DNA from: Nanobdellota archaeon
GTDB taxonomy: Archaea > Nanobdellota > Nanobdellia > Pacearchaeales > GW2011-AR1
Direction: 5' to 3'
Assembly: GCA_038045405.1 (NCBI GenBank)
Contig: JBBSYF010000001.1
Location: forward strand, 101,175-165,174
DNA length: 64,000 bases
Shown here: one piece after another, positions 21,190-35,624 of the stretch
Layout of the letters: the number at the start of each line of letters is the position of its first letter
Position numbering within the stretch: position 1 is the first letter of the stretch
Notes under the pieces: model-generated
What the model was told of the DNA's origin: nothing
What the model saw: only the letters and a program-made list of their open reading frames with translations
Database searches by the model: none
Made by a program: the position numbers and the translations under genes

Positions 21190-21921
21190 ATGAAAGCTAT
21201 AATTCTTGCAGCAGGAATCAACTCAAGACTAAAAGATTACATAAACATACCAAAATGTTTGCTTCCATTAGGAGATAAAACCATACTTGAAAATCAAGTA
21301 TCTTCATTAATAAAAGCAGGTTTTAAACAGGAGGATATACTTGTCGTTGTGGGACATAAACATGAAATGATAGAAAAAGTTCATAACAACACACTATTTA
21401 ATCCAAAATTTGCAGAGTTCAATAATGGTTATAGTGTTTATCTTGCATTACAGTACATCCTTCATGAGTGTGATTTACCAGAATCAGAAAAAATTTTTAT
21501 TCTGGATGGAGATCTTGTATATGACAATAACTTAATTCTAAAAATCAGTTCATCAGATAACGAAAACATTCTTGTAAACAAACCAATCGATTACAGTTTA
21601 GAACTAAAAGATGAAATTTCTGTTTTAGACAGTAACGGAAAAATCGTAGAATTACAAATCCCTTCTCAGAAAGACCCTCTGGCCCCTGAATACTCTCAAA
21701 AGCCTCTTTACAGTTATGCTGGAATAATGAAAATTTCAAAAAACGTTGCAACACAATTACACGAAAAACTAAAAACCTCTCATCAAGGTTGGTACACTTT
21801 ATCTCTTCCAGAGATTGTTCTTAATAATGATATCTACTCTTTTGAAATCACCGAAGATTTAAAATACTGTTTTGATGTGGATACTAAAGAAGATTTAGAC
21901 AAACTTTCAAACATTAACTAA
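21190..21921 (+). CDS. LicC-family nucleotidyltransferase (CTP:phospho-alcohol cytidylyltransferase-like)
   Basis: MKAIILAAGINSRL... and FNPKFAEFNNGYSVYLA...FILDGDLVY closely parallel the LicC/PntC pattern AIILAAGLGSRF ... FNDKYADYNNFYSLYL ... VIDADN. Confidence 0.65.
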   Translation: MKAIILAAGINSRLKDYINIPKCLLPLGDKTILENQVSSLIKAGFKQEDILVVVGHKHEMIEKVHNNTLFNPKFAEFNNGYSVYLALQYILHECDLPESEKIFILDGDLVYDNNLILKISSSDNENILVNKPIDYSLELKDEISVLDSNGKIVELQIPSQKDPLAPEYSQKPLYSYAGIMKISKNVATQLHEKLKTSHQGWYTLSLPEIVLNNDIYSFEITEDLKYCFDVDTKEDLDKLSNIN

Positions 21922-21922
21922 A

Positions 21923-23038
21923 ATGCAAAAATCAAGAAAACCCTTTAAGATGTTTACTGCCGGCCCAGTAAATGTTTCAGATACTGTCAAACAATCGTTA
22001 GCATATTCTGAAATAGGACATAGAGAACCAGAATTTTCTGAGGTTTACGAAAGCATAAGGGGGAAATTGTTACAAGTATTCGGAGCTAATCCTAAAGATT
22101 ATGGCTCTTTTGTCGTCGGAGCGTCTGGCACTGGTGGAATAGAATCTGTTTTGTCAGGTACTGTCCACAGCGGTGGGGAAATGCTCGTTATTAACAATGG
22201 TGCTTTCGGAGACAGAATGGCTGAGATTTGTGAAATATACCAGATTCCCACTCTAAGAGCAGGTTATCAATGGGGACAATATCCCGACCTTAAAGGTGTA
22301 GAAAGATTAATTCTTGAAAATCCCAAAATTGAAGCCGTCTCAATGGTATTCCTTGAAACTAGTACTGGTATGACAAATCCTGTTAAAGAAGTTGGGAAGC
22401 TTTGTAAAAAGTACGAAAAGATGTTCATTGTAGATGCTGTTAGCGGATTAGCAGGTGATCCTTTAAACGTTCAAGAATCAAATATAGACTTCTGTATATC
22501 CAATACCAACAAAGGACTTTCTGGTCTACCTGTAATCTCTTTTGTTTGCGCCAAAAAAAGTTCTGTTGAGAATGTAAGAGACATTCCTCCACGAAATTTT
22601 TATTTGAGTATGTTAAAGCATTATGATTACGCCGAAAAAACAAACCAAACACCAACTACTCCTCAGATTCCACTTTTTTATATGCTTGATCAAGCATTAA
22701 CTGAATTGTTAGAAGAAGGTGTTGACAATAGACACGGAAGATATCGAGAAAATAGTAATATTATGAGGCGTCGCCTTGGTGAACTGGGTTTTAGATTTCA
22801 GCTACCTGCAGAACAAATGTCACGAGTGATGACTAATGTTTTAATTCCAAATAGTCACAAATACGAGGAGTTTCATACTCCTTTGAAAGAAAGAGGGTAC
22901 ATTGTTTATCCGGGAAAAGGCCCTCTTGAAAACAAGATTATACATATTGCAAATGTTGGCACTCATACACTCGATGATGTAAATGACTTTTGTGATGTTG
23001 TTGCAGAAATTGTAAGAGAAAAGCGAGTAAAATATTAA
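21923..23038 (+). CDS. class V aminotransferase (serine-pyruvate / 2-aminoethylphosphonate-pyruvate transaminase-like)
   Basis: PLP-lysine region SNTNKGLSGLPVISF resembles the PhnW/AGXT motif SSANKCIQGVPGF; the length of about 370 aa also fits. Confidence 0.6.
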   Translation: MQKSRKPFKMFTAGPVNVSDTVKQSLAYSEIGHREPEFSEVYESIRGKLLQVFGANPKDYGSFVVGASGTGGIESVLSGTVHSGGEMLVINNGAFGDRMAEICEIYQIPTLRAGYQWGQYPDLKGVERLILENPKIEAVSMVFLETSTGMTNPVKEVGKLCKKYEKMFIVDAVSGLAGDPLNVQESNIDFCISNTNKGLSGLPVISFVCAKKSSVENVRDIPPRNFYLSMLKHYDYAEKTNQTPTTPQIPLFYMLDQALTELLEEGVDNRHGRYRENSNIMRRRLGELGFRFQLPAEQMSRVMTNVLIPNSHKYEEFHTPLKERGYIVYPGKGPLENKIIHIANVGTHTLDDVNDFCDVVAEIVREKRVKY

Positions 23039-23039
23039 C

Positions 23040-24155
23040 TTATTTCTCTTCCCTTTTTCTTTCAGGAAATAATCTTTGTATTTCTTCCTCAGATGCCCCG
23101 CAGATTCCTCTTTCAGTAATCAATCCGGTTATCAATCTAGCCGGAGTCACGTCAAAACCGTAATTTACAGCAGGGCTTTCTTCAGGAGTTACTAAAACTC
23201 TTTTCAATTCTCCCTCATGTAAACCTTCAACATAACTTACTTCCTCGGCATCCCTTTCTTCAATAGGAATTTCTTTCACTCCATCTTTAAGATTCCAATC
23301 AAAAGTTGATGAAGGGAGGGCAACGTAGAAAGGAACATTATTGTCTTTTGCAGATAATGCCTTAAGATATGTCCCTATCTTGTTAGCAACATCTCCAGTG
23401 TGGGTAACTCTATCTGCACCGACGATACAAGCATCTACCATTCCGTGTTGCATCAAATGTCCTCCAACATTATCCGAGATTACATGGTGTGGAACTCTAT
23501 GATTGAGTAACTCCCATGCTGTTAGTTTAGCTCCCTGATTTCTAGGTCTTGTTTCATCAACCCAAACATGAACTTTTATTCCAGCATCAAATGCAGCATA
23601 AACTGGAGCAAGTGCAGAACCGTAATCTACAAATGCTAACCAACCCGCATTACAGTGTGTTAGAATATTTACTGGTTCTCCACTTTTCTCTTTGCTTAGT
23701 CTTTTGATTATCTCTAAACCCTCTTGCCCAATTCTTCTACAGTATTCTGCATCCTCATCAGCAATTTTATTTGCCGTCTTTAATGCAACTTCTACTTTTT
23801 CTTCAAGCCCATTTACAGAGCTTATTTCTTTTATCTGTCTGTCGACGGCCAATGCAAGATTAATAGCTGTAGGTCTTGTTCTTTTAAGTTTTTCTCCAGA
23901 CTTTATCAAAAAGTTATCAAAATTATGGCTAGGGGCCTCAAGAGCTGCAAGGTACATTCCATATCCTGCTGTGGCTCCGATAAGACCTGCACCCCTCACA
24001 TGCATATCCTTAATTGCTGTTGTTGCATCTCTAACGGTTCTTAAATTTTCAATTACAAATTTATGTGGAAGATATCTCTGATCTATTATTTTGACTGTGG
24101 AATTCTCTTCTTCTGATAACCAAATTGTTTTGTAAGGAATACCTTTTACTCTCAT
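23040..24155 (-). CDS. eIF-2B alpha/beta/delta family isomerase (MtnA / ribose-1,5-bisphosphate isomerase-like)
   Basis: RGAGLIGATAGYGMYLA...VGADRV...NKIGT pattern of the MTR-1-P isomerase / aIF-2B family. Confidence 0.7.
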   Translation of the reverse strand: MRVKGIPYKTIWLSEEENSTVKIIDQRYLPHKFVIENLRTVRDATTAIKDMHVRGAGLIGATAGYGMYLAALEAPSHNFDNFLIKSGEKLKRTRPTAINLALAVDRQIKEISSVNGLEEKVEVALKTANKIADEDAEYCRRIGQEGLEIIKRLSKEKSGEPVNILTHCNAGWLAFVDYGSALAPVYAAFDAGIKVHVWVDETRPRNQGAKLTAWELLNHRVPHHVISDNVGGHLMQHGMVDACIVGADRVTHTGDVANKIGTYLKALSAKDNNVPFYVALPSSTFDWNLKDGVKEIPIEERDAEEVSYVEGLHEGELKRVLVTPEESPAVNYGFDVTPARLITGLITERGICGASEEEIQRLFPERKREEK

Positions 24156-24218: not shown

Positions 24219-25508
24219 ATGTACTTCTCTTTAATAAACTTTAATAAGGATATTTCAAAAGTATTTTTGTATAAGATGATACTTTATTTTGATAATCGAA
24301 TAACTGACATTCAGCTGATGCCGAAAGGTTCCTACGCAGAACTTGACACAATTAGGGAATCTAATTCTAATTATAAGTTTCAAGATAGACTAGCCGTTAC
24401 AATGTACTCTCTTGCAAGCCATGCAGATATTCCATGGACAGATGTGATTATTAAGTACGAACTCTCTCCGGCGAACAAGAAGAAACAAAAAATATTTGAA
24501 AAATTTGTAAAAAAGATATGGCCCGAAGCCAAAATTATTTATGGGCAAAGTGTTAAAATAAGTCAGTATAGAGAAATCGCTAAAATAATAAACAACAGCA
24601 AAGACAATTGGATTTTTTATGCTGCTAATAATGATCATCCTTTTATGTCTCCTGATAAAGAAATGCTCAACAAATGTCTCAGAAAAGCTGAAGAATTGAC
24701 TAAAAAGCACAAGTATGTTTCAGTTGTTTATTCCCATTTTCCTGAACCATTACATATGGCTAGAGAAGGAACAACGCTTCATGATATAGGATTCCCAGCC
24801 TCAAAAATACTTGAAGAGAATAAAGATACCATAGTGGCTTTATTCCCAAAAGGGTATACTACTTCGATGCAAATTGCCAACAAAAATTTGTTTAATCATT
24901 GGGTCAATGGAAATATTCCTGAATCTGCACCAATATGGAAACTAGAAAATGTTTATAATTATATTCCTAAAAGAAAAAGGCCGCCCCAAATACTAGTATT
25001 ACCAAAAAGGCCGCTTTTTGCTCACTTTGATGGATACAGCCATAACAAAGGAACGGGATATCTTGTTTCTGCCTCACTTGTTCCCCCCTTATTTATTCCA
25101 CCCGGATTTTTTGAAAATAAAATAAAAATAGCTTATGGGTATGACAAAATGAGGGAAGGATGGGTTAACATAAATCCTTTAAAGAAAAAATATTCTTTTG
25201 AAGATTCTGTTAACGGAACAGATTTAATGATAACCTTGAAAGATTTACCCTTGTTTTGGAAAAATAGAATAAAAGAAATAGACATTAATCCAAAAGCCGA
25301 CTTAAAAAAGTTGGAAGATGCTGCAGCTAGAAGAAAAAATAAAATAGAGAATGCTTACTTCAAAAGAAGTATTTGGAATTTTCCCCTTTATGAAGCATAT
25401 GTCTATCAATTTCGAATAAGAAATTTGATAAAAAGAGTGCTTTCAACAATTAAGCCGATTAAAGAAACAATAAGAAAGATAGAGATAAAATACAAGATAA
25501 AATTGTGA
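24219..25508 (+). CDS. hypothetical protein, possibly a glycosyl- or phospho-transferase
   Basis: 429 aa ORF embedded in the glycan cluster next to a KdsC-like phosphatase. Family not recognised. Confidence 0.3.
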   Translation: MYFSLINFNKDISKVFLYKMILYFDNRITDIQLMPKGSYAELDTIRESNSNYKFQDRLAVTMYSLASHADIPWTDVIIKYELSPANKKKQKIFEKFVKKIWPEAKIIYGQSVKISQYREIAKIINNSKDNWIFYAANNDHPFMSPDKEMLNKCLRKAEELTKKHKYVSVVYSHFPEPLHMAREGTTLHDIGFPASKILEENKDTIVALFPKGYTTSMQIANKNLFNHWVNGNIPESAPIWKLENVYNYIPKRKRPPQILVLPKRPLFAHFDGYSHNKGTGYLVSASLVPPLFIPPGFFENKIKIAYGYDKMREGWVNINPLKKKYSFEDSVNGTDLMITLKDLPLFWKNRIKEIDINPKADLKKLEDAAARRKNKIENAYFKRSIWNFPLYEAYVYQFRIRNLIKRVLSTIKPIKETIRKIEIKYKIKL

Positions 25509-25562
25509 TTTAATACAACTTATTATCATAATCTTTATAAGTTAGAACAAAGAGCAATTATT

Positions 25563-26045
25563 ATGGAAGAGTCTAAGAAAAAACTTAATCTGATAATAGA
25601 CATTGACGGAGTAATGACTACTGGTCAATTCCTCTATTCTGAAAAAGGCAAAGCGTTCAAAGTCTTTGGCCCTCATGACTCGGACGGCCTTAAAATAATA
25701 AAAGATAAAATCAACATCCTCTTCATAACTGCAGACAAACGCGGTTTTAAAATCTCTAAAAAAAGAATCGACGACATGGGATACAAAATTGAACTTGTCA
25801 AGGACGGAAGCAGGTATGAATGGATAAAAAGTAATTTTGGTCTTGAAAATGTAATCTTCATTGGGGATGGGATTTCTGATGCTTTGGTAATCAGAGATTG
25901 TAGGTTTGGGATTGCTCCTGCAAATGCAAGAGTTGAAGCAAAGAAGTGGGCAAAGTACATAACACCCTCCAAATCAGCTGAAGGTGCTGTTTGTGATGCA
26001 TGCATAAAAATTAATAAGGTTTTCTTCGGTGGTAAGAACAATTAA
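25563..26045 (+). CDS. KdsC-family HAD-IIIA sugar-acid phosphate phosphatase
   Basis: LIIDIDGVMTTG HAD motif I and ...IGDGISD motif; the size of about 160 aa is typical of KdsC/NeuA-associated phosphatases. Confidence 0.65.
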   Translation: MEESKKKLNLIIDIDGVMTTGQFLYSEKGKAFKVFGPHDSDGLKIIKDKINILFITADKRGFKISKKRIDDMGYKIELVKDGSRYEWIKSNFGLENVIFIGDGISDALVIRDCRFGIAPANARVEAKKWAKYITPSKSAEGAVCDACIKINKVFFGGKNN

Positions 26046-27555
26046 TATGGATGAAAATCAAAAAATTCTAGAAGTAGCTAAAGAAGCGGCAAGAAAAGGC
26101 GGTGAAATAGTCTTAAAGTATTTTAAAGAAGAGGTTGAATTTCGTCAAAAAGAAGATAAAACATTTGCGAGCATTGCTGACGATGAATCGGAAAAGGAGA
26201 TTAAAGAAATAATCTTAAGAAATTTCCCAGAACATTCTATTTACGGGGAAGAAACAGGAAAAACCGGTCAAAGTAATATCGTTTGGCATGTTGATCCTTT
26301 AGATGGCACAAGCAATTTTAGAAATAAAATACCACTTTTTTGCGTTTCAATAGGGGTAGAAAGGGATGGAAATTTTATTGTGGGAGTTATTTATAACCCT
26401 ATTACAAATGAACTCTTTTCAGCTTCAGAAGGCGAAGGAGCTTTTGTTAACGAAAAAAGAATAAGTGTAAACAAAGAAGATATCTCTAAAGGAATTCTTG
26501 TTCTAGACTCTTCTTTCAAGGGAGACATTGGAAGAATAAAAACTAACTTACAAAGTGAAATAATCAAACTTTCTTCAAGAATTAGAATGATAGGAAGTAA
26601 TGCTCTGCAATTAGCAGAGGTAGCTGAAGGAGCATATTTCTCTTCAATTTCAGATCACATTGATGCCTATGACTTTGCTGCAGGAATAGTCTTAGTTAAA
26701 GAAGCTGGGGGAATTGTGACAGACCAATTTGGAAACAAACCCTCTGCAAAATCAAAAGTCATTGTTGCTTCGAATAAAAAAGAAAATCACGAGAAAATAA
26801 TTGGATTAACTAAAAATTATTATTCTAACTTTGATAAGCAAAATTCTGTTAATAATTATAAAGTTTGCATCTTAGCTGGGGGGATTGGTAGTAGGATGGG
26901 GGAGTTTTCTAAAACTTTTAATAAAGCGATGATTCCTGTTCAAGGAAAACCTTCTATTTGTCACATAATAGAAAAATTTCCCGAAGATGTAGAAATAGTG
27001 GTGATTGTTGGCTATAAAAAAGAAACAATCATAGACTACTTAAAATATGCTTATCCTAAAAGAAAATTTACTTTTTTCGAAGTTGAAAAACCTTCAGGAT
27101 TAGGCGCCGGTCCTGGCTATGCCGTTTTGGAATGTAAACACTTACTTCAATGCCCATTCATCTTTTTTGCTGCAGATACCTTAGTAAAAGAAAATGTTCC
27201 TGAACCCGATGAAAATTGGTTTGGAATCGCAGAAGTTGATGATACTAGTAGATTTTGTTCTGCCAGCATAAACGAAGAAGGAATGATTTCTAAAATTGAT
27301 GACAAAATAAAATGTGACAACAAGTTTGCATTTATAGGGTTAGCAGGGATAAAAGATTACAAAACTTTCTTTGCATCTTTAGAAAATGACAAAACACTCG
27401 TAAAAGGAGAAATTCAAGTTTCTAACGGATTTAAATCTCTAATGAACTTGGGAATGAAAGCAATTACATTTACCTGGTTTGATACTGGTGACCCTACATC
27501 GTATTCTCATGCTTTAGAAAATTATCCAAACGGGGAAGGTTATCGCGGGCAGTAA
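26029..27555 (+). CDS. bifunctional inositol-monophosphatase-family phosphatase / MobA-IspD-like cytidylyltransferase
   Basis: N-terminal IMPase motifs (WHVDPLDGTSNF and a downstream metal-binding region); C-terminal NTP-transferase domain beginning VCILAGGIGSRMG...GKPSI. Confidence 0.65.
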   Translation: MVRTINMDENQKILEVAKEAARKGGEIVLKYFKEEVEFRQKEDKTFASIADDESEKEIKEIILRNFPEHSIYGEETGKTGQSNIVWHVDPLDGTSNFRNKIPLFCVSIGVERDGNFIVGVIYNPITNELFSASEGEGAFVNEKRISVNKEDISKGILVLDSSFKGDIGRIKTNLQSEIIKLSSRIRMIGSNALQLAEVAEGAYFSSISDHIDAYDFAAGIVLVKEAGGIVTDQFGNKPSAKSKVIVASNKKENHEKIIGLTKNYYSNFDKQNSVNNYKVCILAGGIGSRMGEFSKTFNKAMIPVQGKPSICHIIEKFPEDVEIVVIVGYKKETIIDYLKYAYPKRKFTFFEVEKPSGLGAGPGYAVLECKHLLQCPFIFFAADTLVKENVPEPDENWFGIAEVDDTSRFCSASINEEGMISKIDDKIKCDNKFAFIGLAGIKDYKTFFASLENDKTLVKGEIQVSNGFKSLMNLGMKAITFTWFDTGDPTSYSHALENYPNGEGYRGQ

Positions 27556-27627
27556 TGCTAATCTCTATGCTTCAACTTCATAAATCTTATAAAGGCGTTT
27601 TAATATTTACGGGAGTAGTCAGCGAGG

Positions 27628-29277
27628 ATGTTTATAAATAAAAACATTATAGGCGACTATCGGATAGACAAAATGGTGAATTATAAAGTATGCATCTTAG
27701 CTGGAGGCGTTGCTAGTCAAATGGGCGACTTGACTAAACATGTTAATGCAGCTATTCTTCCCGTAAACTTCAAAGCTTCTATTTCTTATATGATTGAAAA
27801 ATTCCCAGAAGATGTTGAAATTGTAATTGCTGTTGGTCACAAAAAAGAAACAGTTATAGACTACTTAACTTTGGCATATCCAAATAGAAATCTAAAATTT
27901 GTTGAAGTTGATAGGTATTTTGGACCTGGAACCGGACCGGGGTATGGACTTCTTTGTTGCAAACAGCATTTGCAATGTCCATTTGTTTTTGCGGTGTCAG
28001 ATACAATAATCCTTGAAGAAATTCCAAAACCAGAGGAAAACTGGTTCGGAATCGCTCCCACAAAAGAAACAGAACCATATTGTACTGTCAAGATAAAAAA
28101 TAATCTTGTCTATCAAATTGACGACAAAATAAAATGTGATAATAAACATCTTTTCATTGGTTTGGCTGGAGTGAAAGATTATGAACACTTTTGGGAAGCT
28201 CTGGAGAATGATAAAGAGCCCGTAAGAGGAGAAATTCAAGTTTCCAACGGGTTCAAAAGGCTTATTGAAAAAAGACTTGTTCCTATAGGATTCACTTGGT
28301 TTGATACTGGAGCTCCTGGAAGCTATAAGGAAGCTCACCTCAATTTTTCTGGAGGAGGGCAAACATTTGACTTTAGTAAGAATAATGAATTTCTTTATTT
28401 TGTCAATGGAAGAGTCATAAAATTTTTTGCTGATCAAGAAATAACGAAAAAGAGGGTTGAAAGAGCAAAGAACCTCGTAGGGCTTACACCAAAAATTGAA
28501 GGACATAAAGGCAACTTCTATTCATACAAAAAAATGGATGGGCAGGTACTTTATTCCGTTTTAAACCCCCAAATAGTAAACGACTTTCTCCAATGGGCAA
28601 AAAGAGATTTGTGGAAGGAAATAACTCTCTCTGAAAATGAAAAAAAAGAGTTCAAAGAAGCAACACAAAAATTTTACTACGAAAAAACAATGAAAAGACT
28701 AGGTGAATTTTATAACAAATCAAAGATTAGTGACGATTTTAATGTCATCAACGGAGTTCAGATTCCACCCTTAAAAGAACTATTAAACAAAATCAATTGG
28801 GAATACATCTGCAACTCTGTTCCTGTAAAGTTTCATGGAGACCTACAATTCGATAACATTTTAGTAAGCAGAGATGAAAAGAGCCAACTAACAAAATTTA
28901 TCCTTCTCGATTGGAGACAAGACTTTGGAGGACTTACCAATGCTGGAGACTTATATTATGACTTCTCCAAATTGTATGGTGGAATGATAATCTCATACCA
29001 ACTGATAAAAACAGGCCAATTTTCTTTTGATATGAGTGGCTCAAGCATACATTACAACTATACTATCAAAAATGACTTGCTTGAAGCAAAAGATGAATTT
29101 GAGTCTTTCATTAAAAAAAATGGTTTTGACTTAAACAAAATAAAAGTTATCACTTCTCTAATTTTTCTAAATATGTCCCCATTACATCATGAACCCTTTG
29201 ATTTGATGCTTTATCACCTCGGAAAAACAATGTTGCATAAGTCTCTTAAACAAACTGAAAATAATAAATTACAATAA
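27628..29277 (+). CDS. bifunctional MobA-IspD-like cytidylyltransferase / APH-choline-kinase-like small-molecule kinase
   Basis: The N-terminal domain (VCILAGGVASQMG...) is about 60% identical to the C-terminal domain of the preceding gene. The C-terminal domain carries the Brenner-type HGDLQFDNILV...LLDW kinase motif. The likely true start is the internal Met near 27673. Confidence 0.6.
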   Translation: MFINKNIIGDYRIDKMVNYKVCILAGGVASQMGDLTKHVNAAILPVNFKASISYMIEKFPEDVEIVIAVGHKKETVIDYLTLAYPNRNLKFVEVDRYFGPGTGPGYGLLCCKQHLQCPFVFAVSDTIILEEIPKPEENWFGIAPTKETEPYCTVKIKNNLVYQIDDKIKCDNKHLFIGLAGVKDYEHFWEALENDKEPVRGEIQVSNGFKRLIEKRLVPIGFTWFDTGAPGSYKEAHLNFSGGGQTFDFSKNNEFLYFVNGRVIKFFADQEITKKRVERAKNLVGLTPKIEGHKGNFYSYKKMDGQVLYSVLNPQIVNDFLQWAKRDLWKEITLSENEKKEFKEATQKFYYEKTMKRLGEFYNKSKISDDFNVINGVQIPPLKELLNKINWEYICNSVPVKFHGDLQFDNILVSRDEKSQLTKFILLDWRQDFGGLTNAGDLYYDFSKLYGGMIISYQLIKTGQFSFDMSGSSIHYNYTIKNDLLEAKDEFESFIKKNGFDLNKIKVITSLIFLNMSPLHHEPFDLMLYHLGKTMLHKSLKQTENNKLQ

Positions 29278-29278
29278 A

Positions 29279-30277
29279 ATGTCAAATTCTAAAATAGCTG
29301 TTGGACCAATGAGCTCGGAAGTTGTTGAAGCAATATTCAGATTCTCTAATTATAACAGAAAAGAACTAATGATTATAGCTTCGAAGAATCAAGTGGACCA
29401 TTCTGGAGGTTATGTGAACAAATGGACAACAAAAGAGTTCATGAACTTTGTTAAAAAAATGAGAGAAATGTACCCTCAATCAAATGTTAAAATCTGCCGA
29501 GACCATTGCGGGCCAGGTTTCAATGGGATAGACGGCTTGGAAGACAGTTATAAAACAATAAAAGATGATATAGAAAACGGATTTGATCTTATCCACATTG
29601 ATTTTTGCCATTTTCGTGGATCAAAAGAACAACAGTTTGAAGAAACCAAAAAAGCAATAGAATACTGTTACAGCTTAAATCCAAAAATAATGATCGAAGT
29701 TGGAACTGACGAAAATGTTGGTACAAATTTTGGTTTTATGAACCTCAAAGAAATTGAAAGAGAAGTAGAGTTTTTCACTTCTTTTTGCAAGCCAGAGTTT
29801 TATGTTGTTCAAACAGGAAGTCTCATCCTAGAAATTAATCAAGCTGGAAGTTTTAATAAGGAATTTGTTGAAAAGATTTCACAAATTCTAAAGACTAAAG
29901 GAATAAAGCTTAAGGAACACAATGCAGACTATCTTTCACTAGAAGAAATAGAAAAAAGAAATGGAATTGTAGATGCTATGAACATTGCACCACAATTAGG
30001 GGTATTACAAACAATGTTCGTATTGAACAAATGTCTTCTTTATGGAATTGATTTCACCGAGTTCTTAGCTGAGGTATATGAAAAAGGAAAATGGAAGAAG
30101 TGGATGAATAAAAACACACCTGAGAACAAGTTTTTATGTTGTGTTATAGCGGGACATTATCATTTCTCTTCTGAAAATTATAAAAAATTAATAGAAAAAT
30201 TAGGGGAAAGAGAAGACATCAAGGACAATATAATAGACCATCTAATGGGGGTTATATCTCATTATGTTAGAAAATAA
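29279..30277 (+). CDS. GatZ/KbaZ-like (tagatose-6-phosphate kinase family, PF08013-like) protein
   Basis: LMIIASKNQVDHSGGYV parallels the GatZ IEATSNQVNQFGGYTG motif; TIM-barrel-like length. Confidence 0.45.
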   Translation: MSNSKIAVGPMSSEVVEAIFRFSNYNRKELMIIASKNQVDHSGGYVNKWTTKEFMNFVKKMREMYPQSNVKICRDHCGPGFNGIDGLEDSYKTIKDDIENGFDLIHIDFCHFRGSKEQQFEETKKAIEYCYSLNPKIMIEVGTDENVGTNFGFMNLKEIEREVEFFTSFCKPEFYVVQTGSLILEINQAGSFNKEFVEKISQILKTKGIKLKEHNADYLSLEEIEKRNGIVDAMNIAPQLGVLQTMFVLNKCLLYGIDFTEFLAEVYEKGKWKKWMNKNTPENKFLCCVIAGHYHFSSENYKKLIEKLGEREDIKDNIIDHLMGVISHYVRK

Positions 30278-30995
30278 GATGTTGGAAAAAAGGACAATCC
30301 TGATAACTGGCTCTTCGAGAGGGATAGGGGCTTCCATAGCAAGACTAGCAAAAAATTATGGAGCAAACGTAATTTTACACGGAAAAACGGAATCGGAGAG
30401 CCTTAAGACTCTGGCTCGTGAATTAGATTCACCATATATCTTTTGTGATGTTTCTGATGAAGAATCTGTCAGACGAGAAGTCGAATCTCTTGAAGGAATA
30501 GACATCTTAGTTAATAATGCTGGAATAAATCCTTCAAAAAACTTTATGGAACTTACAGGTAGCGATTGGAGAGAAATCTTTAATGTAAACCTTTTAGGTC
30601 CAGTTTACTTTTCAAAAGCGGTTCTCCCAAAAATGATTGAAAAAAGATATGGAAGAATAATTAACATCTCTTCTTTCAAAGGTTTAAATTATGTTTCAGG
30701 AAAACCCGCCTACGCCGCTTCAAAAGCAGCAGTTATTAGGCTAACTTCAAGCATGGCTGAAGAATTTGCGCGTTACGGAATAAATGTTAATTCAGTTGCT
30801 CCGGGATTTACTGAAACAGAGATGACAAAGGCAACAATGTCTCCTAAAATACAATCTCAAGTCGATAAGATACCTTTGAATAGAATGGGAAAGTCAGAAG
30901 AAATTGCCGAGGCTGTTTTATTCTTGGCAAGCGATAAAGCAAGTTACATAACTGGACAAACAATAATTGTTGACGGGGGTTTGAGTATAATTTAA
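30264..30995 (+). CDS. short-chain dehydrogenase/reductase (FabG-like)
   Basis: TGSSRGIG cofactor motif, NNAG, and the catalytic S...YAASK triad. Confidence 0.8.
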   Translation: MLENKMLEKRTILITGSSRGIGASIARLAKNYGANVILHGKTESESLKTLARELDSPYIFCDVSDEESVRREVESLEGIDILVNNAGINPSKNFMELTGSDWREIFNVNLLGPVYFSKAVLPKMIEKRYGRIINISSFKGLNYVSGKPAYAASKAAVIRLTSSMAEEFARYGINVNSVAPGFTETEMTKATMSPKIQSQVDKIPLNRMGKSEEIAEAVLFLASDKASYITGQTIIVDGGLSII

Positions 30996-30996
30996 A

Positions 30997-31461
30997 ATGT
31001 CCGAAGAAAAAAGAAGAGATTGGTTCAAAGAAGATTTCCTATCCTTTCAAAGAGAAGGGGCAAAGATTGTAACAAAGCCTTGGGGGATGGAAGTATGGTT
31101 AGAACTAAATGACAGATACTGCTATAAAAGAATTTACATCTCAGCAGGGAACAAAACAAGTTTACAATATCATGAAAAAAAACTAGAAACTAACTACATA
31201 ATAAAAGGGGAAGCAGAAGTTTGGATGCAAGATCCAAATGGAGAAACCAATCTAAGAATTGACAATCAAGACTATACTTTTTCAGTTACTAAAAGAAGAG
31301 AAAATTATTTCTTTACAGTAACTCCCCCAACAGTTCATAGAATTAAGGCTCTTACAGACATAATCTTACAGGAAGTTTCAACACCTGATGTCGACGATGT
31401 AGTAAGACTTCAAGATGATGCTGGTAGAGGAAGCGGAAAAATAGACTCGGAACATCAGTAG
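30997..31461 (+). CDS. cupin domain protein (type II mannose-6-P isomerase C-terminal-like)
   Basis: KPWGMEVWLE cupin motif 1 and a downstream His-containing motif. Confidence 0.55.
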   Translation: MSEEKRRDWFKEDFLSFQREGAKIVTKPWGMEVWLELNDRYCYKRIYISAGNKTSLQYHEKKLETNYIIKGEAEVWMQDPNGETNLRIDNQDYTFSVTKRRENYFFTVTPPTVHRIKALTDIILQEVSTPDVDDVVRLQDDAGRGSGKIDSEHQ

Positions 31462-31472
31462 GTTTCTTAATC

Positions 31473-33497
31473 CTAAGCAACACCAGCGTTAATCATACCT
31501 GCCACTTTTTTTGCAATATCTACACAGGTGACGACTTTTCCAGAAAAAATAGTGATTAATCCATTACCATGATTTGTAATTTCGCTTGGCCTTTCATCAG
31601 TGTCATCAACGTTGGCCTTTACTGCTCTTATCACATAAATTGGTCTGATTATTTTTGCATCTTTCAATATTGGAAAATCTTTAGTGGCAGTTTTTAATAT
31701 CTTCTCCCTATTAGTCTTTACATTCTGCAAGATCATAATTTCTGGATCAAGATTATCAGAAACAAAATCATTGAGTATGGACTCTTTTATATGCACTAAT
31801 GTAAACCTTCCTTCTTCTGCCCTTGGCATCAAAGTGCTGAATTGTCCGTCGAATATTGATAGACCAACTTTCTCTTTTAAAGGAAGTTCAATCTCAAGCA
31901 TTTCAACTAGTTCATAAAGAACCTTTCTTCTAGGTAAACCAAACCACTGATTAAAACAGTTAAAATTAAAGTACGTTGCATTTATTACAAAATCAAACTC
32001 TTCTTCTAAAATTCCTGAAGGAGAAGATATTCTTAACACCTTTTTATCTCCCCTAATCTCTCCACCCTTTATTTCATGGTTAAGTTTAACCTCAACTTCT
32101 GAATTTTTTAATTTTTCCTTCACTATCTCAAGCATTTTTTTTGGGTCATAGGCATATTCTGCTACTTTAACAACCATAGAAACCCTCTCTTTATTTATGA
32201 GGTTTCCATCAATGTCTACTACTTGATAAGGAAGCCCCAATTCTTCACAAAATTTTAAGTAACTTCCCGGAGTTGTCTTACTATCCTCTTTTGCTATTGC
32301 ATGATAATGATTAAAAGGTCTTATGATACATCCGCCATATTCTTTTTCAAAGCTTTCTCTTGAGTTTAGGCATTCAAGTGCAGTACTTTTGCTTCTAGGG
32401 TAATGGTATCCTCCATGATGTCTTAAATGATTATTTGTAGATGCTCCAGAAAGAAGTTCTCCTGAACGCTCATACAAGGTAACATCAAAATTTTTTGAGA
32501 GTTCTAAAGCTGTTGAACTGCCAAATATTCCTCCACCAATTACTGCCACCTTCCCCGTCCTCTTTTGCGGTATTCCTCTTTTTAAGTCATAAGAAGCGTA
32601 TTCAGCAATAATTTTCTCTGTAAGTTCAATACTTTCAAGAATTTCTTTTTTCTCAACTAAGGGGGCATTAAGCCCATTGACTGCTCCTAAAAATTTTTTA
32701 ATTGAAACTTTTAGAGGATCTTCTATCTCAAAACTTCTTCCATTTCCCATGAATGTCTGTTTGTATGCCGGGCCTATTTCTCGTCTAAAAGATTCTCCAT
32801 TTAAAGAAAAAATAATTTCTCCCGGTTTTTTTGTTCTTAACTTAAAATCATAGACTACTTCACACTCTTGTTCCGAATTTCTGTATTTGAATCTAACGGT
32901 CATCGCCTCTTCACTTTTTGATAAGAATTCCACATCTTCTGCCTTCCCATTAGGAATCAAACCTATCAGAATACTATTTGTGTGGGGAAGGTGGTCCATT
33001 ATCATGCTTATACCACTTTCTGCAGGCTCCATATAAATAGAAAGATTTCTTAATTTGTTCAAATCAGGATACCTTCTGAAGTAGTCTACAATTGAAATCC
33101 ACTGGGTGTTTATTGTTAAAAGTTTTTTTCTTTTTTCAGCAAGATTAAACAACTCTTCTGCTATTCTATGATTATTACCTTTTGTTTGAACAAAAGGTTT
33201 TTCACATATTACGTGCAGATTATTTTCTAAACATAATCTTATCTGATTTTCGTGCATCTCAGGTGGTGTACAAATAGAAACAGCATCTAAACTCTCCCAT
33301 TTTATCAATTCTTCAAGTTTATGGTAAGCTCTTACATTAACATTGAACTCTTTCTTTAACTCTTCAGCTTTTTTTGAAGCACTTTCTCTTGTGCTACAAA
33401 GAATAGCAACCACTTCTGCTCCAAGTGCAGAAAATTCTCTAACGTGATACTTCCCGATTTTTCCCACCCCTAATATCGCAACTCTTATTTTTTCCAT
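31473..33497 (-). CDS. fusion of a Gfo/Idh/MocA NAD(P)-oxidoreductase (N-terminal) with an FAD-dependent DAO-like oxidoreductase (C-terminal)
   Basis: N-terminal IRVAILGVGKIGKYH...ICEKP; C-terminal VAVIGGGIFGSSTALEL...ERS dinucleotide-binding motif. Confidence 0.6.
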   Translation of the reverse strand: MEKIRVAILGVGKIGKYHVREFSALGAEVVAILCSTRESASKKAEELKKEFNVNVRAYHKLEELIKWESLDAVSICTPPEMHENQIRLCLENNLHVICEKPFVQTKGNNHRIAEELFNLAEKRKKLLTINTQWISIVDYFRRYPDLNKLRNLSIYMEPAESGISMIMDHLPHTNSILIGLIPNGKAEDVEFLSKSEEAMTVRFKYRNSEQECEVVYDFKLRTKKPGEIIFSLNGESFRREIGPAYKQTFMGNGRSFEIEDPLKVSIKKFLGAVNGLNAPLVEKKEILESIELTEKIIAEYASYDLKRGIPQKRTGKVAVIGGGIFGSSTALELSKNFDVTLYERSGELLSGASTNNHLRHHGGYHYPRSKSTALECLNSRESFEKEYGGCIIRPFNHYHAIAKEDSKTTPGSYLKFCEELGLPYQVVDIDGNLINKERVSMVVKVAEYAYDPKKMLEIVKEKLKNSEVEVKLNHEIKGGEIRGDKKVLRISSPSGILEEEFDFVINATYFNFNCFNQWFGLPRRKVLYELVEMLEIELPLKEKVGLSIFDGQFSTLMPRAEEGRFTLVHIKESILNDFVSDNLDPEIMILQNVKTNREKILKTATKDFPILKDAKIIRPIYVIRAVKANVDDTDERPSEITNHGNGLITIFSGKVVTCVDIAKKVAGMINAGVA

Positions 33498-34502: not shown

Positions 34503-35624
34503 ATGAAGATACTTTTCATAAAGTTAGGGGCCCTTGGAGGAGTATTAAGGGCAACCCCTCTATTTACTGGACTTAAAAGAAAATACAAGAATTGTGAGCT
34601 TAATGTTATTACTAAAGAAGATGCCTCCCCTCTTTTGGATAATAATCAAGACATCGACAAACTTTGGATATGGGAAAGAGACAAAAACAAAATTGAAAAG
34701 GATTCTTTTGATTGGATAATAAACACTGAAGATGATGAAGAAACTTGCAAATTTGCTACCAAACTGAAGACAAAAAAATTTACGGGTCCTTACTTTTCTA
34801 AAGAAGGAAAGATAACCTACACCAAGGATATAGCAATATGGTACAACATGGGTAAAATCTCAAAGTTTGGACTAAAAAAAGCAAATCAACTGAAGAAAAA
34901 AAACTCAAGAAGATATCAGGAGATATACTCTCAAATTTTAAAACTCCCCAAAAATAAATACCCTCTAGTCTTGAACATGACTGATTATGAAAAAGAGTGG
35001 TCTCATGATTTTAGAAAAAAACATGAAGTTGGTGGAAAACACTTTCTTATTGGGGTAAACACAGGGGCTGGAGCTAACTGGCCGATTAAAGCGCTTTCAA
35101 TACAAAAAACAGTAAATCTCATAAAAGATATTCACAAAAAAAATCAAAGTGTAATCCTTTTAGGCGGTCCAAATGAAAGAGGAAGGCATCAAGAGATTCT
35201 CAAAAAACTAAATGTTAGACTGATAAAAAACTCTTTTCAAAATAAAACCCGAAGGTTCTTCTCAAATATTATTTCTTTTAAAGATATCATAAAAGCCTCT
35301 GAATTTGACATAAAATTGATAAATCCTGGTACTGAGAATAGCCTACGAAAATTTATATCGATAATAAACGCATTAGACATTCTCATAACTAGTGATACCT
35401 TGACACTTCATATTGCAGTTGCACTTAAAAAAAGAGTTGTTTGCTTTTTTGGACCGACTTCTGCAGAAGAAATAGAATTATACGGACAGGGTGTTAAAAT
35501 AAAACCTAACTCAGACTGTTACTGTTGCTACAAGAAACAGCGCACAAGTGAAAAGATGTGTATTGATGAAATAGAAGTGGACAAACTAACTCAATCAATG
35601 TTAAATCAGACAAGATACCTATAA
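34503..35624 (+). CDS. glycosyltransferase family 9 (heptosyltransferase-like)
   Basis: N-terminal MKILFIKLGALGGVLRATPL typical of GT9, with GT-B fold length. Confidence 0.55.
   Translation: MKILFIKLGALGGVLRATPLFTGLKRKYKNCELNVITKEDASPLLDNNQDIDKLWIWERDKNKIEKDSFDWIINTEDDEETCKFATKLKTKKFTGPYFSKEGKITYTKDIAIWYNMGKISKFGLKKANQLKKKNSRRYQEIYSQILKLPKNKYPLVLNMTDYEKEWSHDFRKKHEVGGKHFLIGVNTGAGANWPIKALSIQKTVNLIKDIHKKNQSVILLGGPNERGRHQEILKKLNVRLIKNSFQNKTRRFFSNIISFKDIIKASEFDIKLINPGTENSLRKFISIINALDILITSDTLTLHIAVALKKRVVCFFGPTSAEEIELYGQGVKIKPNSDCYCCYKKQRTSEKMCIDEIEVDKLTQSMLNQTRYL

What the first reader, a model, noticed from the sequence alone, without database searches (positions are those of the whole stretch)
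25563..31461. Kinase-cytidylyltransferase-phosphatase module with tandem paralogous cytidylyltransferase domains, suggesting an undescribed CDP-polyol/phosphodiester pathway
Two adjacent genes carry nearly identical MobA/IspD-like cytidylyltransferase domains, each starting YKVCILAGG..S.MG and about 60% identical over roughly 230 aa. One copy is fused to an N-terminal IMPase-family phosphatase domain (WHVDPLDGTSNF). The other is fused to a C-terminal APH/choline-kinase-like kinase domain (HGDLQFDNILV...LLDW). They are flanked by a KdsC-like HAD phosphatase, a GatZ/KbaZ-like protein, an SDR and a cupin. A CDP-alcohol phosphatidyltransferase sits about 7 kb upstream in the same island. Cytidylyltransferase, CDP-alcohol phosphotransferase and IMPase are exactly the activities of the di-myo-inositol-phosphate (IPCT/DIPPS/IMPase) and teichoic-acid-type (TarI/TagF) routes. 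A fused small-molecule kinase would let the pathway start from a free polyol or sugar alcohol (salvage) rather than from a synthase product. I do not know of this domain architecture being described (IMPase-CTase plus CTase-kinase in tandem).
Basis: partly seen in the sequence, partly recalled or inferred. Interest (0 to 1): 0.8.

Follow-up and report, generated by a model that had tools for sequence, protein, structure and literature searches.

The report
Mutase-free nucleotide-sugar cassette with dead paralogue
This is a real, widespread and uncharacterised gene cassette that most likely builds a nucleotide-activated rare sugar for surface glycans, and in this archaeon the nucleotidyltransferase domain fused to the kinase has lost key catalytic residues while an intact copy sits fused to a phosphatase.

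Summary
The two nucleotidyltransferase (NTase) domains are 57% identical over 227 aa.

The genes are not a CDP-polyol/DIP-like pathway. They are one version of a conserved cassette:
- KdsC-like HAD phosphatase
- RmlA-type NTase fused to an APH/choline-kinase-fold kinase
- GatZ/KbaZ-like Zn enzyme
- PMI-like cupin
- one NAD(P) oxidoreductase, either an SDR or a shikimate-dehydrogenase-like protein, never both

The cassette occurs in DPANN archaea, CPR bacteria and many other bacteria, always in glycan loci. Here it lies in an AglB/STT3 island.

The CDP-alcohol transferase 7 kb upstream is never linked to the cassette (0 of 82 loci). It pairs instead with an AEP-aminotransferase/NTase pair.

The kinase-fused NTase in this window has lost the catalytic Arg and Lys (Q31, A41). 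The IMPase-fused paralogue keeps them (R289, K299). Across loci, this loss correlates with the presence of a second NTase (p = 9e-9).

Most likely function: a route from a ketose phosphate to an NDP-sugar that uses a kinase plus a phosphatase instead of a mutase. This is the logic of MupP/AmgK/MurU and of the NDP-heptose pathways. The substrate and the nucleotide are unresolved.

The parts
24219..25508 (+). u429: uncharacterised protein with a GT-A-like fold. It is the candidate glycosyltransferase that uses the cassette's product. It is the first gene of the co-directional array, and the likely true start is M19 at 24273.
   Evidence: No Pfam or NCBIfam hit. It has 540 homologues, all named 'hypothetical'. 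The AlphaFold model has pLDDT 92. The best PDB matches are GalU/RmlA and the GT-A glycosyltransferases SpsA, TarP and ppGalNAcT, but they are weak (E = 4e-4 to 1e-2, TM about 0.3). A homologue lies within 8 kb in 14 of 82 related loci by BLAST; the de novo cluster that contains it spans 20 of 79 loci.
25563..26045 (+). KdsC-like HAD (subfamily IIIA type) sugar-phosphate phosphatase. This is the core phosphatase of the cassette.
   Evidence: Hydrolase_3 E = 1.2e-6. TIGR01670 KdsC 58.8 bits, below the cutoff of 107. The DxD motif (D13, D15) and GDGxxD are present. A homologue lies within 8 kb in 68 of 82 loci.
26056..26817 (+). IMPase/FBPase-family phosphatase domain, residues 10-263 of the 508-aa fusion protein encoded at 26029-27555. 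It is an accessory second phosphatase.
   Evidence: PF00459 E = 9e-61, 206 bits. The best PDB hit is the Aquifex IMPase/FBPase 2pcr, E = 1.7e-41. The motif WHVDPLDGT is present. An IMPase gene is present in 11 of 82 loci, unfused in L003 and L007.
26860..27528 (+). NTase2: an intact RmlA-type nucleotidyltransferase domain, residues 278-500 of the same fusion protein. It is inferred to be the active NTase in this organism.
   Evidence: NTP_transf_3 and NTP_transferase hits. It keeps GGIGSRMG (R289) and NKA (K299). It belongs to a single neighbour-joining clade of 11 second-copy NTases. Elsewhere these copies are free-standing or fused to HAD_2, KdsC-like HAD or HAD plus aldose-1-epimerase.
27679..28356 (+). 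NTase1: the NTase domain of the kinase fusion, residues 18-243 of the protein encoded at 27628-29277 (likely true start M16 at 27673). It is probably catalytically degenerate.
   Evidence: It is 57% identical to NTase2. Q31 replaces the G-loop Arg and A41 replaces the catalytic Lys. D125, K167, W224 and D226 are retained.
28366..29247 (+). Small-molecule kinase domain with the APH/choline-kinase fold, residues about 247-540. It is inferred to be a sugar kinase acting on the anomeric hydroxyl.
29279..30277 (+). GatZ/KbaZ-like class II aldolase-fold Zn enzyme. It is inferred to be a ketose-phosphate C4 epimerase or aldolase.
   Evidence: PF08013 37.2 bits, above the cutoff of 26.7. PDB 2fiq GatZ, E = 7e-5. 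The blocks DH (D75-H76), IHxD, GT(D/E), QTG and EHNxDY align with the matching blocks of E. coli GatZ. The paper on GatZ (PMC11907403) names Asp87, His88, Glu171 and His257 as the catalytic and metal residues; assigning them to these blocks is my reading of the alignment. Present in 76 of 82 loci, and fused to the NTase-kinase protein in L045 and L051.
30264..30995 (+). Classical SDR (FabG-like) NAD(P) oxidoreductase. This is the redox step of the cassette.
   Evidence: adh_short_C2 E = 4e-64. Among 79 loci, an SDR is present in 22 and a shikimate-dehydrogenase-like protein in 40, never both. P(no overlap) = 2.6e-9.
30997..31461 (+). PMI-like cupin. It is inferred to be an aldose-ketose isomerase acting on sugar phosphates.
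   Evidence: MannoseP_isomer E = 7e-7. Q57, H59, E64 and H114 are invariant. PDB profile hits: M6P isomerase 7zvm 2.5e-4, cupin PGI 0.01, FdtA 0.025. Present in 76 of 82 loci, and fused to the NTase-kinase protein in L082 and L083.

Best explanation
The region is one operon-like cassette that makes a nucleotide-activated rare sugar for the surrounding AglB-type glycosylation island.

Proposed steps (all inferred):
1. The GatZ-like Zn enzyme converts a common ketose phosphate, such as fructose-6-P or a heptulose-P, to its C4 epimer by retro-aldol/aldol chemistry.
2. The PMI-like cupin isomerises the product to an aldose phosphate.
3. The phosphate is moved to C1 without a phosphomutase. The HAD phosphatase removes the distal phosphate and the APH-fold kinase phosphorylates the anomeric hydroxyl. 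The order of these two steps is unresolved: phosphatase first as in MupP/AmgK/MurU, or kinase first as in GmhA/HldE/GmhB and AcbU/AcbJ/AcbR.
4. An RmlA-type NTase converts the sugar-1-P to the NDP-sugar.
5. The SDR carries out a ketoreduction or epimerisation whose position in the pathway is unknown.

In this organism the NTase domain fused to the kinase has lost its NTP-binding Arg and Lys. It is probably a scaffold or a sugar-phosphate-binding domain. The duplicated NTase, fused to an accessory IMPase/FBPase-family phosphatase, does the catalysis.

Shown here: domain identities, catalytic-motif status, conservation of the cassette, gene fusions and genomic context.

Inferred: the substrates, the nucleotide, the order of steps, and the inactivity of NTase1.
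For: Conservation of the cassette:
- Of 82 loci with an NTase-kinase homologue, 76 have the GatZ-like gene, 76 the cupin and 68 the HAD within 8 kb.
- Of 79 non-redundant loci, 62 have an adjacent, co-directional SDR or SDH-like gene, and the two are mutually exclusive.

Gene fusions link the activities:
- NTase-kinase-GatZ-like and cupin-NTase-kinase.
- HAD-NTase, IMPase-NTase and HAD-aldose-1-epimerase-NTase. The mutarotase domain implies an intermediate with a free anomeric centre.

The NTase family aligns with RmlA over residues 1-240. The aligned features include GxGxR, K26, D111, E162-K163 and W224-x-D226 (hhalign probability 97.2%, E = 3e-11).

The kinase has the fold that also contains the anomeric sugar kinases maltokinase, MTR kinase and NahK.

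The GatZ-like protein keeps sequence blocks that align with the conserved blocks of E. coli GatZ. GatZ and KbaZ are fructose-6-P/tagatose-6-P C4 epimerases (PMC11907403).

The cupin has a PMI-like Q-x-H...E...H site.

Context is always glycan synthesis. Here that includes a Wzx flippase, several glycosyltransferases, AglB/STT3 and AglH-like genes.

Precedents for the logic:
- MupP (HAD phosphatase), then AmgK (anomeric kinase), then MurU (NTase) (PMC5371407).
- AcbU (1-kinase), then AcbJ (HAD phosphatase), then AcbR (NTase) (PMC9200736).

NTase1 degeneracy:
- The window has Q31/A41, against the family consensus R/K.
- Of 18 loci with a degenerate NTase1, 15 have a second NTase, and that second copy always has intact R/K. 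Of 59 loci with an intact NTase1, 6 have a second NTase. Fisher p = 9e-9.
Against: - No enzyme of the cassette has been assayed. The substrate, the nucleotide and the order of steps are all inferred.
- The oxidoreductase step has no assigned role in the scheme.
- The cupin also resembles NDP-sugar ketoisomerases (FdtA, E = 0.025) and generic cupins.
- The kinase's closest structural matches are choline/ethanolamine kinases, and the NTase's best PDB sequence hit is LicC.
- The Fisher test is not corrected for phylogeny. However, the degeneracy occurs alongside at least three different kinds of second NTase.
- The R-to-Q and K-to-A changes may reduce activity without abolishing it.
Confidence: 0.6

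Rival explanations
1. A free polyol is phosphorylated by the kinase and activated to CDP-polyol by one cytidylyltransferase. The upstream CDP-alcohol phosphotransferase then transfers it. The IMPase dephosphorylates the phosphodiester-phosphate product, as in IPCT/DIPPS/IMPase or TarI/TagF-type routes.
For: - IMPase, NTase and CDP-OH_P_transf are all present in the island.
- An SDR that could make a polyol is present.
- IPCT (2xme) appears as a weak PDB hit, E = 0.04-0.3.
- The CDP-OH transferase also lies close to the module in the close relative L087.
Against: - No CDP-OH_P_transf homologue lies within 8 kb in any of 82 related loci.
- In the window and in L087 that gene is contiguous with an NTase(DUF6564) plus PhnW/AepZ-like pair, which explains its presence.
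- The IPCT/DIPPS NCBIfam model scores 15.9 bits against a cutoff of 580.
- IMPase is accessory, present in 11 of 82 loci.
- The NTase has the RmlA sugar-binding half.
- The mutarotase fusions imply a reducing aldose.
- NTase1 is degenerate, so two successive activations are unlikely.
- The model gives no role to the universally linked GatZ-like and cupin genes.
Confidence: 0.07
2. A LicA/LicC-like amino-alcohol activation system. The kinase phosphorylates choline, ethanolamine or a similar alcohol. The NTase then makes the CDP-alcohol, which is used to decorate glycans with phospho-alcohol groups.
For: - The best PDB sequence hit of the NTase is LicC 1jyk (E = 1.9e-4 for the single sequence, 4e-8 for the profile).
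- JGI names some members 'choline kinase'.
Against: - The LicC match covers only the N-terminal nucleotide-binding 104 residues. RmlA aligns over the whole domain, including W-x-D-T-G.
- The model does not explain the near-universal linkage and fusions with the GatZ-like, PMI-like cupin, HAD phosphatase, oxidoreductase and mutarotase components.
- No LicB or LicD type genes were seen among the neighbours examined.
Confidence: 0.08
3. A pseudo-sugar (cyclitol) pathway. A carbocyclic intermediate is reduced by the SDH-like or SDR enzyme and then activated by 1-kinase, phosphatase and NTase steps, as in GDP-valienol synthesis. The GatZ-like enzyme would catalyse an intramolecular aldol reaction.
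For: - Shikimate-dehydrogenase-like genes, whose characterised relatives act on carbocyclic substrates (shikimate, quinate), sit in 40 of 79 loci.
- IMPase and a Gfo/Idh/MocA (inositol-dehydrogenase-like) protein lie next to the module here.
- The AcbU/AcbJ/AcbR precedent (PMC9200736).
Against: - No sugar-phosphate cyclase of the DHQS/EEVS or MIPS type was found among the conserved neighbours.
- The aldose-1-epimerase fusions point to a normal aldose.
- The GatZ-like protein keeps the sequence blocks it shares with the ketose-6-P epimerase GatZ.
Confidence: 0.1
4. Both NTase domains are active and make two different nucleotide-activated products, or use two different nucleotides. The cassette would then feed two glycan building blocks.
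For: - Six loci keep an intact NTase1 together with a second NTase.
- The two copies are only 57% identical.
Against: - In this window NTase1 has Q31/A41 at the two NTP-phosphate-binding positions that are invariant in all second copies and in 59 of 77 first copies.
- These positions align with R16 and K26 of RmlA.
Confidence: 0.12

Closest known systems
MupP / AmgK / MurU anabolic MurNAc recycling (Pseudomonas)
   Same: It uses the same three protein folds in the same logic (PMC5371407):
- a HAD phosphatase removes the 6-phosphate;
- an APH-fold kinase phosphorylates the anomeric OH;
- an RmlA-like NTase makes the NDP-sugar.

No phosphomutase is involved.
   Different: - It is not orthologous. 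The MurU NCBIfam model scores 16.4 bits against a cutoff of 250, and there was no AmgK hit.
- Here the kinase and NTase are fused.
- The substrate here is made de novo by GatZ-like, cupin and oxidoreductase enzymes rather than salvaged.
- The context is glycan synthesis, not peptidoglycan recycling.
NDP-heptose pathways (GmhA, HldE or HddA, GmhB, HddC, HldD)
   Same: - The sequence is isomerase, then anomeric kinase, then HAD phosphatase (GmhB), then NTase, plus an SDR-type redox enzyme.
- HldE is a bifunctional kinase/NTase fusion whose two steps are separated by the phosphatase step. This is established knowledge, not tested here.
- HddC is among the best NTase PDB hits (5xhw, E = 7e-10).
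   Different: - Every component belongs to a different family: cupin instead of SIS GmhA, APH-fold instead of ribokinase or GHMP kinase, and KdsC-like HAD.
- The HddC model scores 40 bits against a cutoff of 300.
- There is an extra GatZ-like enzyme.
- The sugar is unknown.
GDP-valienol branch of acarbose biosynthesis (AcbU, AcbJ, AcbR)
   Same: A 1-kinase makes a 1,7-bisphosphate, a HAD phosphatase removes the distal phosphate, and an NTase activates the 1-phosphate. The authors explicitly describe this as a substitute for a mutase (PMC9200736).
   Different: The substrate there is a C7 cyclitol made by a sugar-phosphate cyclase, and no cyclase is linked to the cassette here. No sequence relationship was tested beyond fold class.
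LicA/LicC (CDP-choline) and NTase-choline-kinase fusions
   Different: - The LicC similarity is limited to the nucleotide-binding half.
- The cassette partners (GatZ-like, cupin, HAD, oxidoreductase, mutarotase) point to a sugar.
- I recall a LicCA fusion in Treponema, but I could not retrieve a paper on it here.
IPCT/DIPPS + IMPase (di-myo-inositol phosphate)
   Same: An NTase, an IMPase-family phosphatase and a CDP-alcohol phosphotransferase all occur in the same island.
   Different: - The IPCT/DIPPS model scores 15.9 bits against a cutoff of 580.
- The CDP-alcohol transferase is not linked to the cassette in other genomes.
- IMPase is accessory.
GatZ/KbaZ fructose-6-P/tagatose-6-P C4 epimerases
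   Same: The Pfam family is matched above its threshold. The conserved blocks, including the Asp-His pair, align with those of E. coli GatZ (PMC11907403).
   Different: - The protein is about 90 aa shorter than GatZ.
- It shares 28-35% identity only with the bacterial long forms.
- NCBIfam equivalog models score far below their cutoffs (37.6 against 569).
- It is biosynthetic and linked to an NTase, not part of galactitol or GalNAc catabolism.

Membership tests
Inositol monophosphatase family (PF00459) | Profile match above the Pfam gathering score, and the metal-binding motifs (GEE, DPxDGT, WDxAAG-like). | tested here: met
   206 bits against a cutoff of 27, covering profile positions 2-268 of 271. 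YGEETG, VDPLDGT and YDFAAG are present in the translation. No NCBIfam equivalog (HisN, SuhB, FBPase/IMPase) reaches its cutoff, so the specific substrate is open.
RmlA-type sugar-1-phosphate nucleotidyltransferase | The G-loop GxGxR and the downstream catalytic Lys, which bind the NTP phosphates. | tested here: met
   This applies to NTase2, the IMPase fusion. It has GGIGSRMG (R289) and NKA (K299), which align with RmlA R16 and K26.
RmlA-type sugar-1-phosphate nucleotidyltransferase | The same G-loop Arg and catalytic Lys, tested in the kinase-fused copy NTase1. | tested here: not met
   The window has GGVASQMG (Q31) and NAA (A41). The family consensus is GSRMG and NKA.
RmlA-type sugar-1-phosphate nucleotidyltransferase | The sugar-phosphate-binding half: the Mg-binding Asp, an E/D-K motif, and W-x-D-T-G. 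| tested here: met
   hhalign of the family profile against E. coli RfbA gives probability 97.2% over 209 columns. D125, D165-K167, W224 and D226 are invariant in both copies.
Cytidylyltransferase (CTP specificity) | Use of CTP rather than UTP, dTTP, GTP or ATP. | not testable with these tools
   Similar weak scores were obtained for CTP-, UTP-, dTTP- and GTP-dependent enzymes.
APH / choline-kinase (ELK) small-molecule kinases | A bilobal kinase fold with a catalytic loop HxDxxxxN and a metal-binding Asp (the DFG equivalent). | tested here: met
AmgK/MurU | Orthology to the MurNAc 1-kinase and to MurNAc-1-P uridylyltransferase. | tested here: not met
   The MurU model NF045761 scores 16.4 bits against a cutoff of 250 for the 508-aa protein and gives no hit for the 549-aa protein.
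LicA/LicC CDP-choline system | Full-length similarity to LicC, and linkage to LicB/LicD-type genes. | tested here: not met
   The LicC match covers profile positions 5-108 only. The conserved neighbours are GatZ-like, cupin, HAD and an oxidoreductase.
IPCT/DIPPS (DIP synthesis) | An IPCT-type NTase functionally linked to a CDP-alcohol phosphotransferase. | tested here: not met
   NF041135 scores 15.9 bits against a cutoff of 580. A CDP-OH_P_transf homologue lies within 8 kb in 0 of 82 loci.
GatZ/KbaZ family (PF08013) | Profile match above the gathering score, and conservation of the Asp-His, Glu and His metal/catalytic residues. | tested here: met
   37.2 bits against 26.7. The blocks DH, GT(D/E) and EHNxDY align with the matching blocks of E. 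coli GatZ; assigning them to the Asp87/His88, Glu171 and His257 named in PMC11907403 is my reading of the alignment. Enzymatic activity was not tested.
KdsC (KDO-8-P phosphatase) | A score above the TIGR01670 cutoff. | tested here: not met
   58.8 bits against 106.95. The protein is a relative at HAD subfamily level only.
NDP-heptose pathway (HddC/GmhB/HldE) | Orthology of the NTase, phosphatase and kinase to HddC, GmhB and HldE or HddA. | tested here: not met
   HddC model NF049965 scores 40.3 bits against a cutoff of 300. The kinase has a different fold class. Only the pathway logic is shared.

The most novel reading that the evidence does not exclude
The cassette synthesises a nucleotide sugar that has not been described. 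One example would be an NDP-hexose or NDP-heptose of talo or galacto configuration, made from a C4-epimerised ketose phosphate. The route uses a kinase plus a phosphatase in place of a mutase. The cassette has been exchanged between DPANN archaea and CPR bacteria: homologues are 60-65% identical across the two domains. It would therefore define a shared surface-glycan building block of these ultra-small organisms. The kinase-fused NTase has repeatedly decayed into a pseudo-enzyme domain wherever a second NTase took over.
Probability: 0.35. Interest if true: 0.7.

Novelty: new variant of a known kind. Interest (0 to 1): 0.55.

Why it matters
- The cassette is common. There are more than 2000 protein clusters of the NTase-kinase fusion, and relatives were confirmed in 116 species-level genomes from DPANN, CPR, SAR86, Pelagibacteraceae, Legionella, Planctomycetota and others.
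- It always lies in glycan loci, and no named or characterised member was found. Identifying its product would annotate thousands of 'hypothetical' or 'choline kinase' genes. It would also show what sugar these poorly known organisms place on their surfaces.
- It is a clean comparative example of non-orthologous displacement within one pathway: SDR against SDH-like oxidoreductase, and three unrelated phosphatases fused to the same NTase.
- It is also an example of a catalytic domain decaying into a probable pseudo-enzyme after duplication.

Tried and rejected
- **Cupin profile against PDB.** The result is ambiguous between PMI, cupin PGI, FdtA and generic cupins.
- **Literature searches for the gene combination.** Searches on GatZ + cupin + NTase + kinase + DPANN, on tagatose + NTase + capsule, on shikimate dehydrogenase + NTase, and on CPR/DPANN nucleotide sugars found no description of this cassette. 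The LicCA fusion that I recalled could not be retrieved.
- **Heptose hint.** A GT9 (heptosyltransferase-family) gene lies 3 kb downstream, and WavE neighbours or fusions occur elsewhere. The GT9 gene is not a conserved neighbour, so I did not adopt heptose as the answer.
- **MtnA.** It lies next to the module and could suggest a methylthioribose-kinase link. It is absent from all other loci, so I rejected the link.
- **Structure prediction for u429.** I repeated the job with database homologues.
- **Exhaustive search with the IMPase-NTase fusion.** None of the best 150 representatives matched the IMPase and the NTase part together.

Full report
**1. Observation**

A co-directional array runs from 24219 to 31461 on the + strand. 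Its members are:
- u429, a protein with no family assignment (429 aa)
- a HAD phosphatase (160 aa)
- a 508-aa protein
- a 549-aa protein
- a 332-aa GatZ-like protein
- a 243-aa SDR
- a 154-aa cupin

Gaps are at most 72 nt, and some genes overlap slightly.

Pfam and NCBIfam confirm the domains:
- The 508-aa protein has an IMPase domain (E = 9e-61) followed by an NTase.
- The 549-aa protein starts with an NTase.
- The HAD is KdsC-like.
- The 332-aa protein is GatZ_KbaZ-like, the 243-aa protein is a FabG-like SDR, and the cupin is PMI-like.

The two NTase domains are 57% identical over 227 aa (E = 1e-91).

The IMPase-NTase fusion recurs in a 79%-identical protein from an independent sample, with the same neighbours. 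It is therefore a real fusion.

**2. What the module is**

The NTase-kinase fusion has more than 2000 homologous clusters. Homologues from DPANN archaea and from CPR bacteria are 60-85% identical to the window protein.

A scan of one genome per species found 116 encoding loci, of which 80 were kept. They also include SAR86, Pelagibacteraceae, Legionella, Planctomycetota, Elusimicrobia, Verrucomicrobiota and Bdellovibrionales, at 38-50% identity.

I called ORFs in all loci and compared them with the window proteins. Within 8 kb of the kinase gene, out of 82 loci:

| Neighbour | Loci |
|---|---|
| GatZ-like | 76 |
| Cupin | 76 |
| HAD | 68 |
| SDR | 24 |
| u429 | 14 |
| IMPase | 11 |
| CDP-alcohol phosphotransferase | 0 |

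De novo clustering of the neighbours revealed one further component:
- A shikimate-dehydrogenase-like protein of about 272 aa occurs in 40 of 79 non-redundant loci.
- The FabG-like SDR occurs in 22 of the 79.
- The two never occur together, and both are always adjacent and co-directional. P(no overlap) = 2.6e-9.
- The cassette therefore includes an NAD(P) oxidoreductase step filled by two unrelated enzymes.

Gene fusions tie the components together:
- NTase-kinase-GatZ-like (L045, L051) and cupin-NTase-kinase (L082, L083).
- For the second NTase: fusions to IMPase, to a HAD_2 phosphatase, to a KdsC-like HAD, and to HAD plus aldose-1-epimerase.

The context is always glycan synthesis. In this window the island from 16.8 to 44.5 kb carries a Wzx flippase, GT1, GT2, GT4 and GT9 enzymes, an FkbM methyltransferase, a UDP-GlcNAc 2-epimerase, a 923-aa STT3/AglB and an AglH-like GT.

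**3. The individual enzymes**

*NTase.* A profile of the family aligns with E. coli RmlA (RfbA) over residues 1-240 (hhalign probability 97.2%, E = 3e-11). The aligned features are:
- the G-loop GxGxR
- K26
- the Mg-binding Asp D111
- E162-K163 (here D-D-K)
- W224-x-D226 (here TWFDTG)

So this is a sugar-1-phosphate NTase architecture. The LicC hit, which is the best PDB sequence hit, covers only the nucleotide-binding half. Nucleotide specificity cannot be read from these data.

*GatZ-like protein.* It shares the blocks DH, IHxD, GT(D/E), QTG and EHNxDY with E. coli GatZ. A recent study names Asp87, His88, Glu171 and His257 as the Zn and catalytic residues of the fructose-6-P/tagatose-6-P C4 epimerases GatZ and KbaZ (PMC11907403). 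Assigning those residues to these blocks is my reading of the alignment.

*Cupin.* It has an invariant Q57-x-H59...E64...H114 site and a PMI (PF01050) hit. PDB profile hits are not specific.

*IMPase domain.* It is closest to bifunctional IMPase/FBPases (2pcr). It reaches no equivalog threshold.

*u429.* It has no family assignment and 540 'hypothetical' homologues. A confident model (pLDDT 92) has a GT-A-like fold. It is a plausible glycosyltransferase for the product, but the matches are weak.

**4. The tandem paralogues**

In the window, the kinase-fused NTase1 reads GGVASQMG...NAAILPV. The family consensus is AGxGSRMG...NKAxLPV. The Arg and Lys that align with RmlA R16 and K26 are therefore replaced by Q31 and A41. 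The sugar-phosphate-side residues D125, K167, W224 and D226 are kept. The IMPase-fused NTase2 has both residues (R289 and K299).

Counts across loci:

| NTase1 state | Second NTase present | No second NTase |
|---|---|---|
| Degenerate (R and/or K lost) | 15 | 3 |
| Intact | 6 | 53 |

- Of the 3 degenerate loci with no second NTase, two have ORFs truncated at the 5' end and one lies on a short contig.
- Fisher p = 9e-9. The test is not corrected for phylogeny.
- Every second copy keeps both R and K.
- The degenerate state occurs with three kinds of second NTase: the close paralogue clade of 11 that includes the window, a type about 42% identical, and a type 33-35% identical in CPR. The pattern has therefore probably arisen more than once.

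The simplest reading is that the fused NTase1 here is a pseudo-enzyme, acting as a scaffold or a sugar-phosphate-binding domain. NTase2 would be the active enzyme. L007 has the same gene order as the window, with IMPase and NTase2 as separate genes. The IMPase-NTase fusion is thus a recent local event. It is rare: three 90%-identity clusters, and none of the best 150 representatives in the exhaustive search of 1.84 billion representatives matches both parts.

**5. Mechanism**

The five or six conserved activities fit a route to an NDP-sugar from a ketose phosphate that does not use a mutase:
1. epimerase or aldolase (GatZ-like)
2. aldose-ketose isomerase (cupin)
3. relocation of the phosphate to C1 by a kinase plus a phosphatase
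4. nucleotidylyl transfer

Two characterised precedents use exactly this logic.
- MupP (HAD phosphatase), then AmgK (APH-fold anomeric kinase), then MurU (RmlA-like NTase) (PMC5371407).
- AcbU (1-kinase), then AcbJ (HAD phosphatase), then AcbR (NTase) (PMC9200736).

The NDP-heptose pathway is a third precedent. That statement rests on established knowledge, not on a test here.

I slightly favour the phosphatase-first order, for two reasons. All three folds match MupP/AmgK/MurU. The domain order HAD, aldose-1-epimerase, NTase suggests a free aldose intermediate. The order is not resolved.

The oxidoreductase has no assigned step, and this is the main gap in the model. The accessory IMPase may act as an FBPase-like 1-phosphatase or as a second sugar phosphatase. 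That is inference only.

**6.

The CDP-alcohol phosphotransferase lies 7.4 kb upstream. It is contiguous with an NTase(DUF6564) and a PhnW/AepZ-like aminotransferase (303 bits), both here and in L087. That looks like a separate CMP-aminoethylphosphonate-type module. The transferase is never linked to the cassette in other genomes. The IPCT/DIPPS, MurU, HddC and KdsC equivalog models all fail by wide margins. The DIP or teichoic-type phosphodiester reading is therefore not supported. The domain calls, and the view that the module is uncharacterised, are supported.

**7. Novelty and score**

The logic and all the folds are known. The specific cassette, its product, the displacement between SDR and SDH-like oxidoreductases, and the recurrent decay of the fused NTase are, as far as I could find, undescribed. 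I rate it a new variant of a known kind, with interest 0.55.

Noticed in passing
window 18154-18951, 21190-21921, 21923-23038; L087 214-2964: A CDP-alcohol phosphotransferase, an NTase (NTP_transf_3/DUF6564) and a PhnW/AepZ-like 2-aminoethylphosphonate aminotransferase (303 bits, cutoff 361) lie close together. In L087 the three genes are contiguous. This looks like a CMP-aminoethylphosphonate head-group module. No PEP mutase or phosphonopyruvate decarboxylase was seen among the ORFs I scanned.
   Followed up: partly
window 24219-25508: u429 is a family of 540 'hypothetical' proteins from DPANN and CPR with no Pfam domain. A confident AlphaFold model (pLDDT 92) has a GT-A-like fold, and NNDHP and HxD motifs are invariant. 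It is possibly a new glycosyltransferase family.
   Followed up: partly
L011 8735-9547, L044 8734-9534, L077 11565-12386 and 37 other loci: A shikimate-dehydrogenase-like gene replaces the SDR in 40 of 79 cassettes. The two are strictly mutually exclusive. An SDH-like enzyme in a glycan pathway is unusual, and its substrate is unknown.
   Followed up: partly
L045 10001-12709, L051 9917-12820, L082 9278-11578, L083 9380-11578: Larger fusions of cassette components occur: NTase-kinase-GatZ-like (903 and 968 aa) and cupin-NTase-kinase (767 and 733 aa).
   Followed up: partly
window 31473-33497 (-): A 674-aa fusion joins a Gfo/Idh/MocA oxidoreductase to a DAO-type FAD oxidoreductase. It converges on the end of the cassette. 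Homologues lie within 8 kb in 4 of 82 related loci by BLAST.
   Followed up: no
window 34503-35624: A GT9 (heptosyltransferase-family) glycosyltransferase occurs in an archaeal glycosylation island (E = 4e-11). It is not a conserved neighbour of the cassette.
   Followed up: partly
window 40723-43494 (-), 43520-44530 (-): A 923-aa STT3/AglB oligosaccharyltransferase and an AglH/WecA-like GT4-family phosphoglycosyltransferase mark the island as an N-glycosylation locus.
   Followed up: no
window 23040-24155 (-) and 45506-46327 (+): There are two IF-2B-family paralogues. The first is a confident MtnA-type methylthioribose-1-P isomerase (454 bits, cutoff 271). The second is shorter and closer to ribose-1,5-bisphosphate isomerase/eIF2B-like proteins.
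   Followed up: no
window 19164-20966 (-); also in 11 related loci: B12-binding radical SAM proteins (KedN5-type C-methyltransferase, 291 bits, below cutoff) recur next to the cassette. They may methylate the sugar or the glycan.
   Followed up: no
L077 8348-9172 and 10 other bacterial loci: A family of about 275 aa with no Pfam hit sits between the GatZ-like gene and the cupin gene in the divergent bacterial version of the cassette (Legionella, Planctomycetota, Elusimicrobia and others).
   Followed up: no
(P0077, P0088, P0112 compared with the window): NTase-kinase proteins of CPR bacteria are 61-65% identical to the archaeal window protein over about 530 aa. This suggests recent transfer of the cassette between the two domains.
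   Followed up: no
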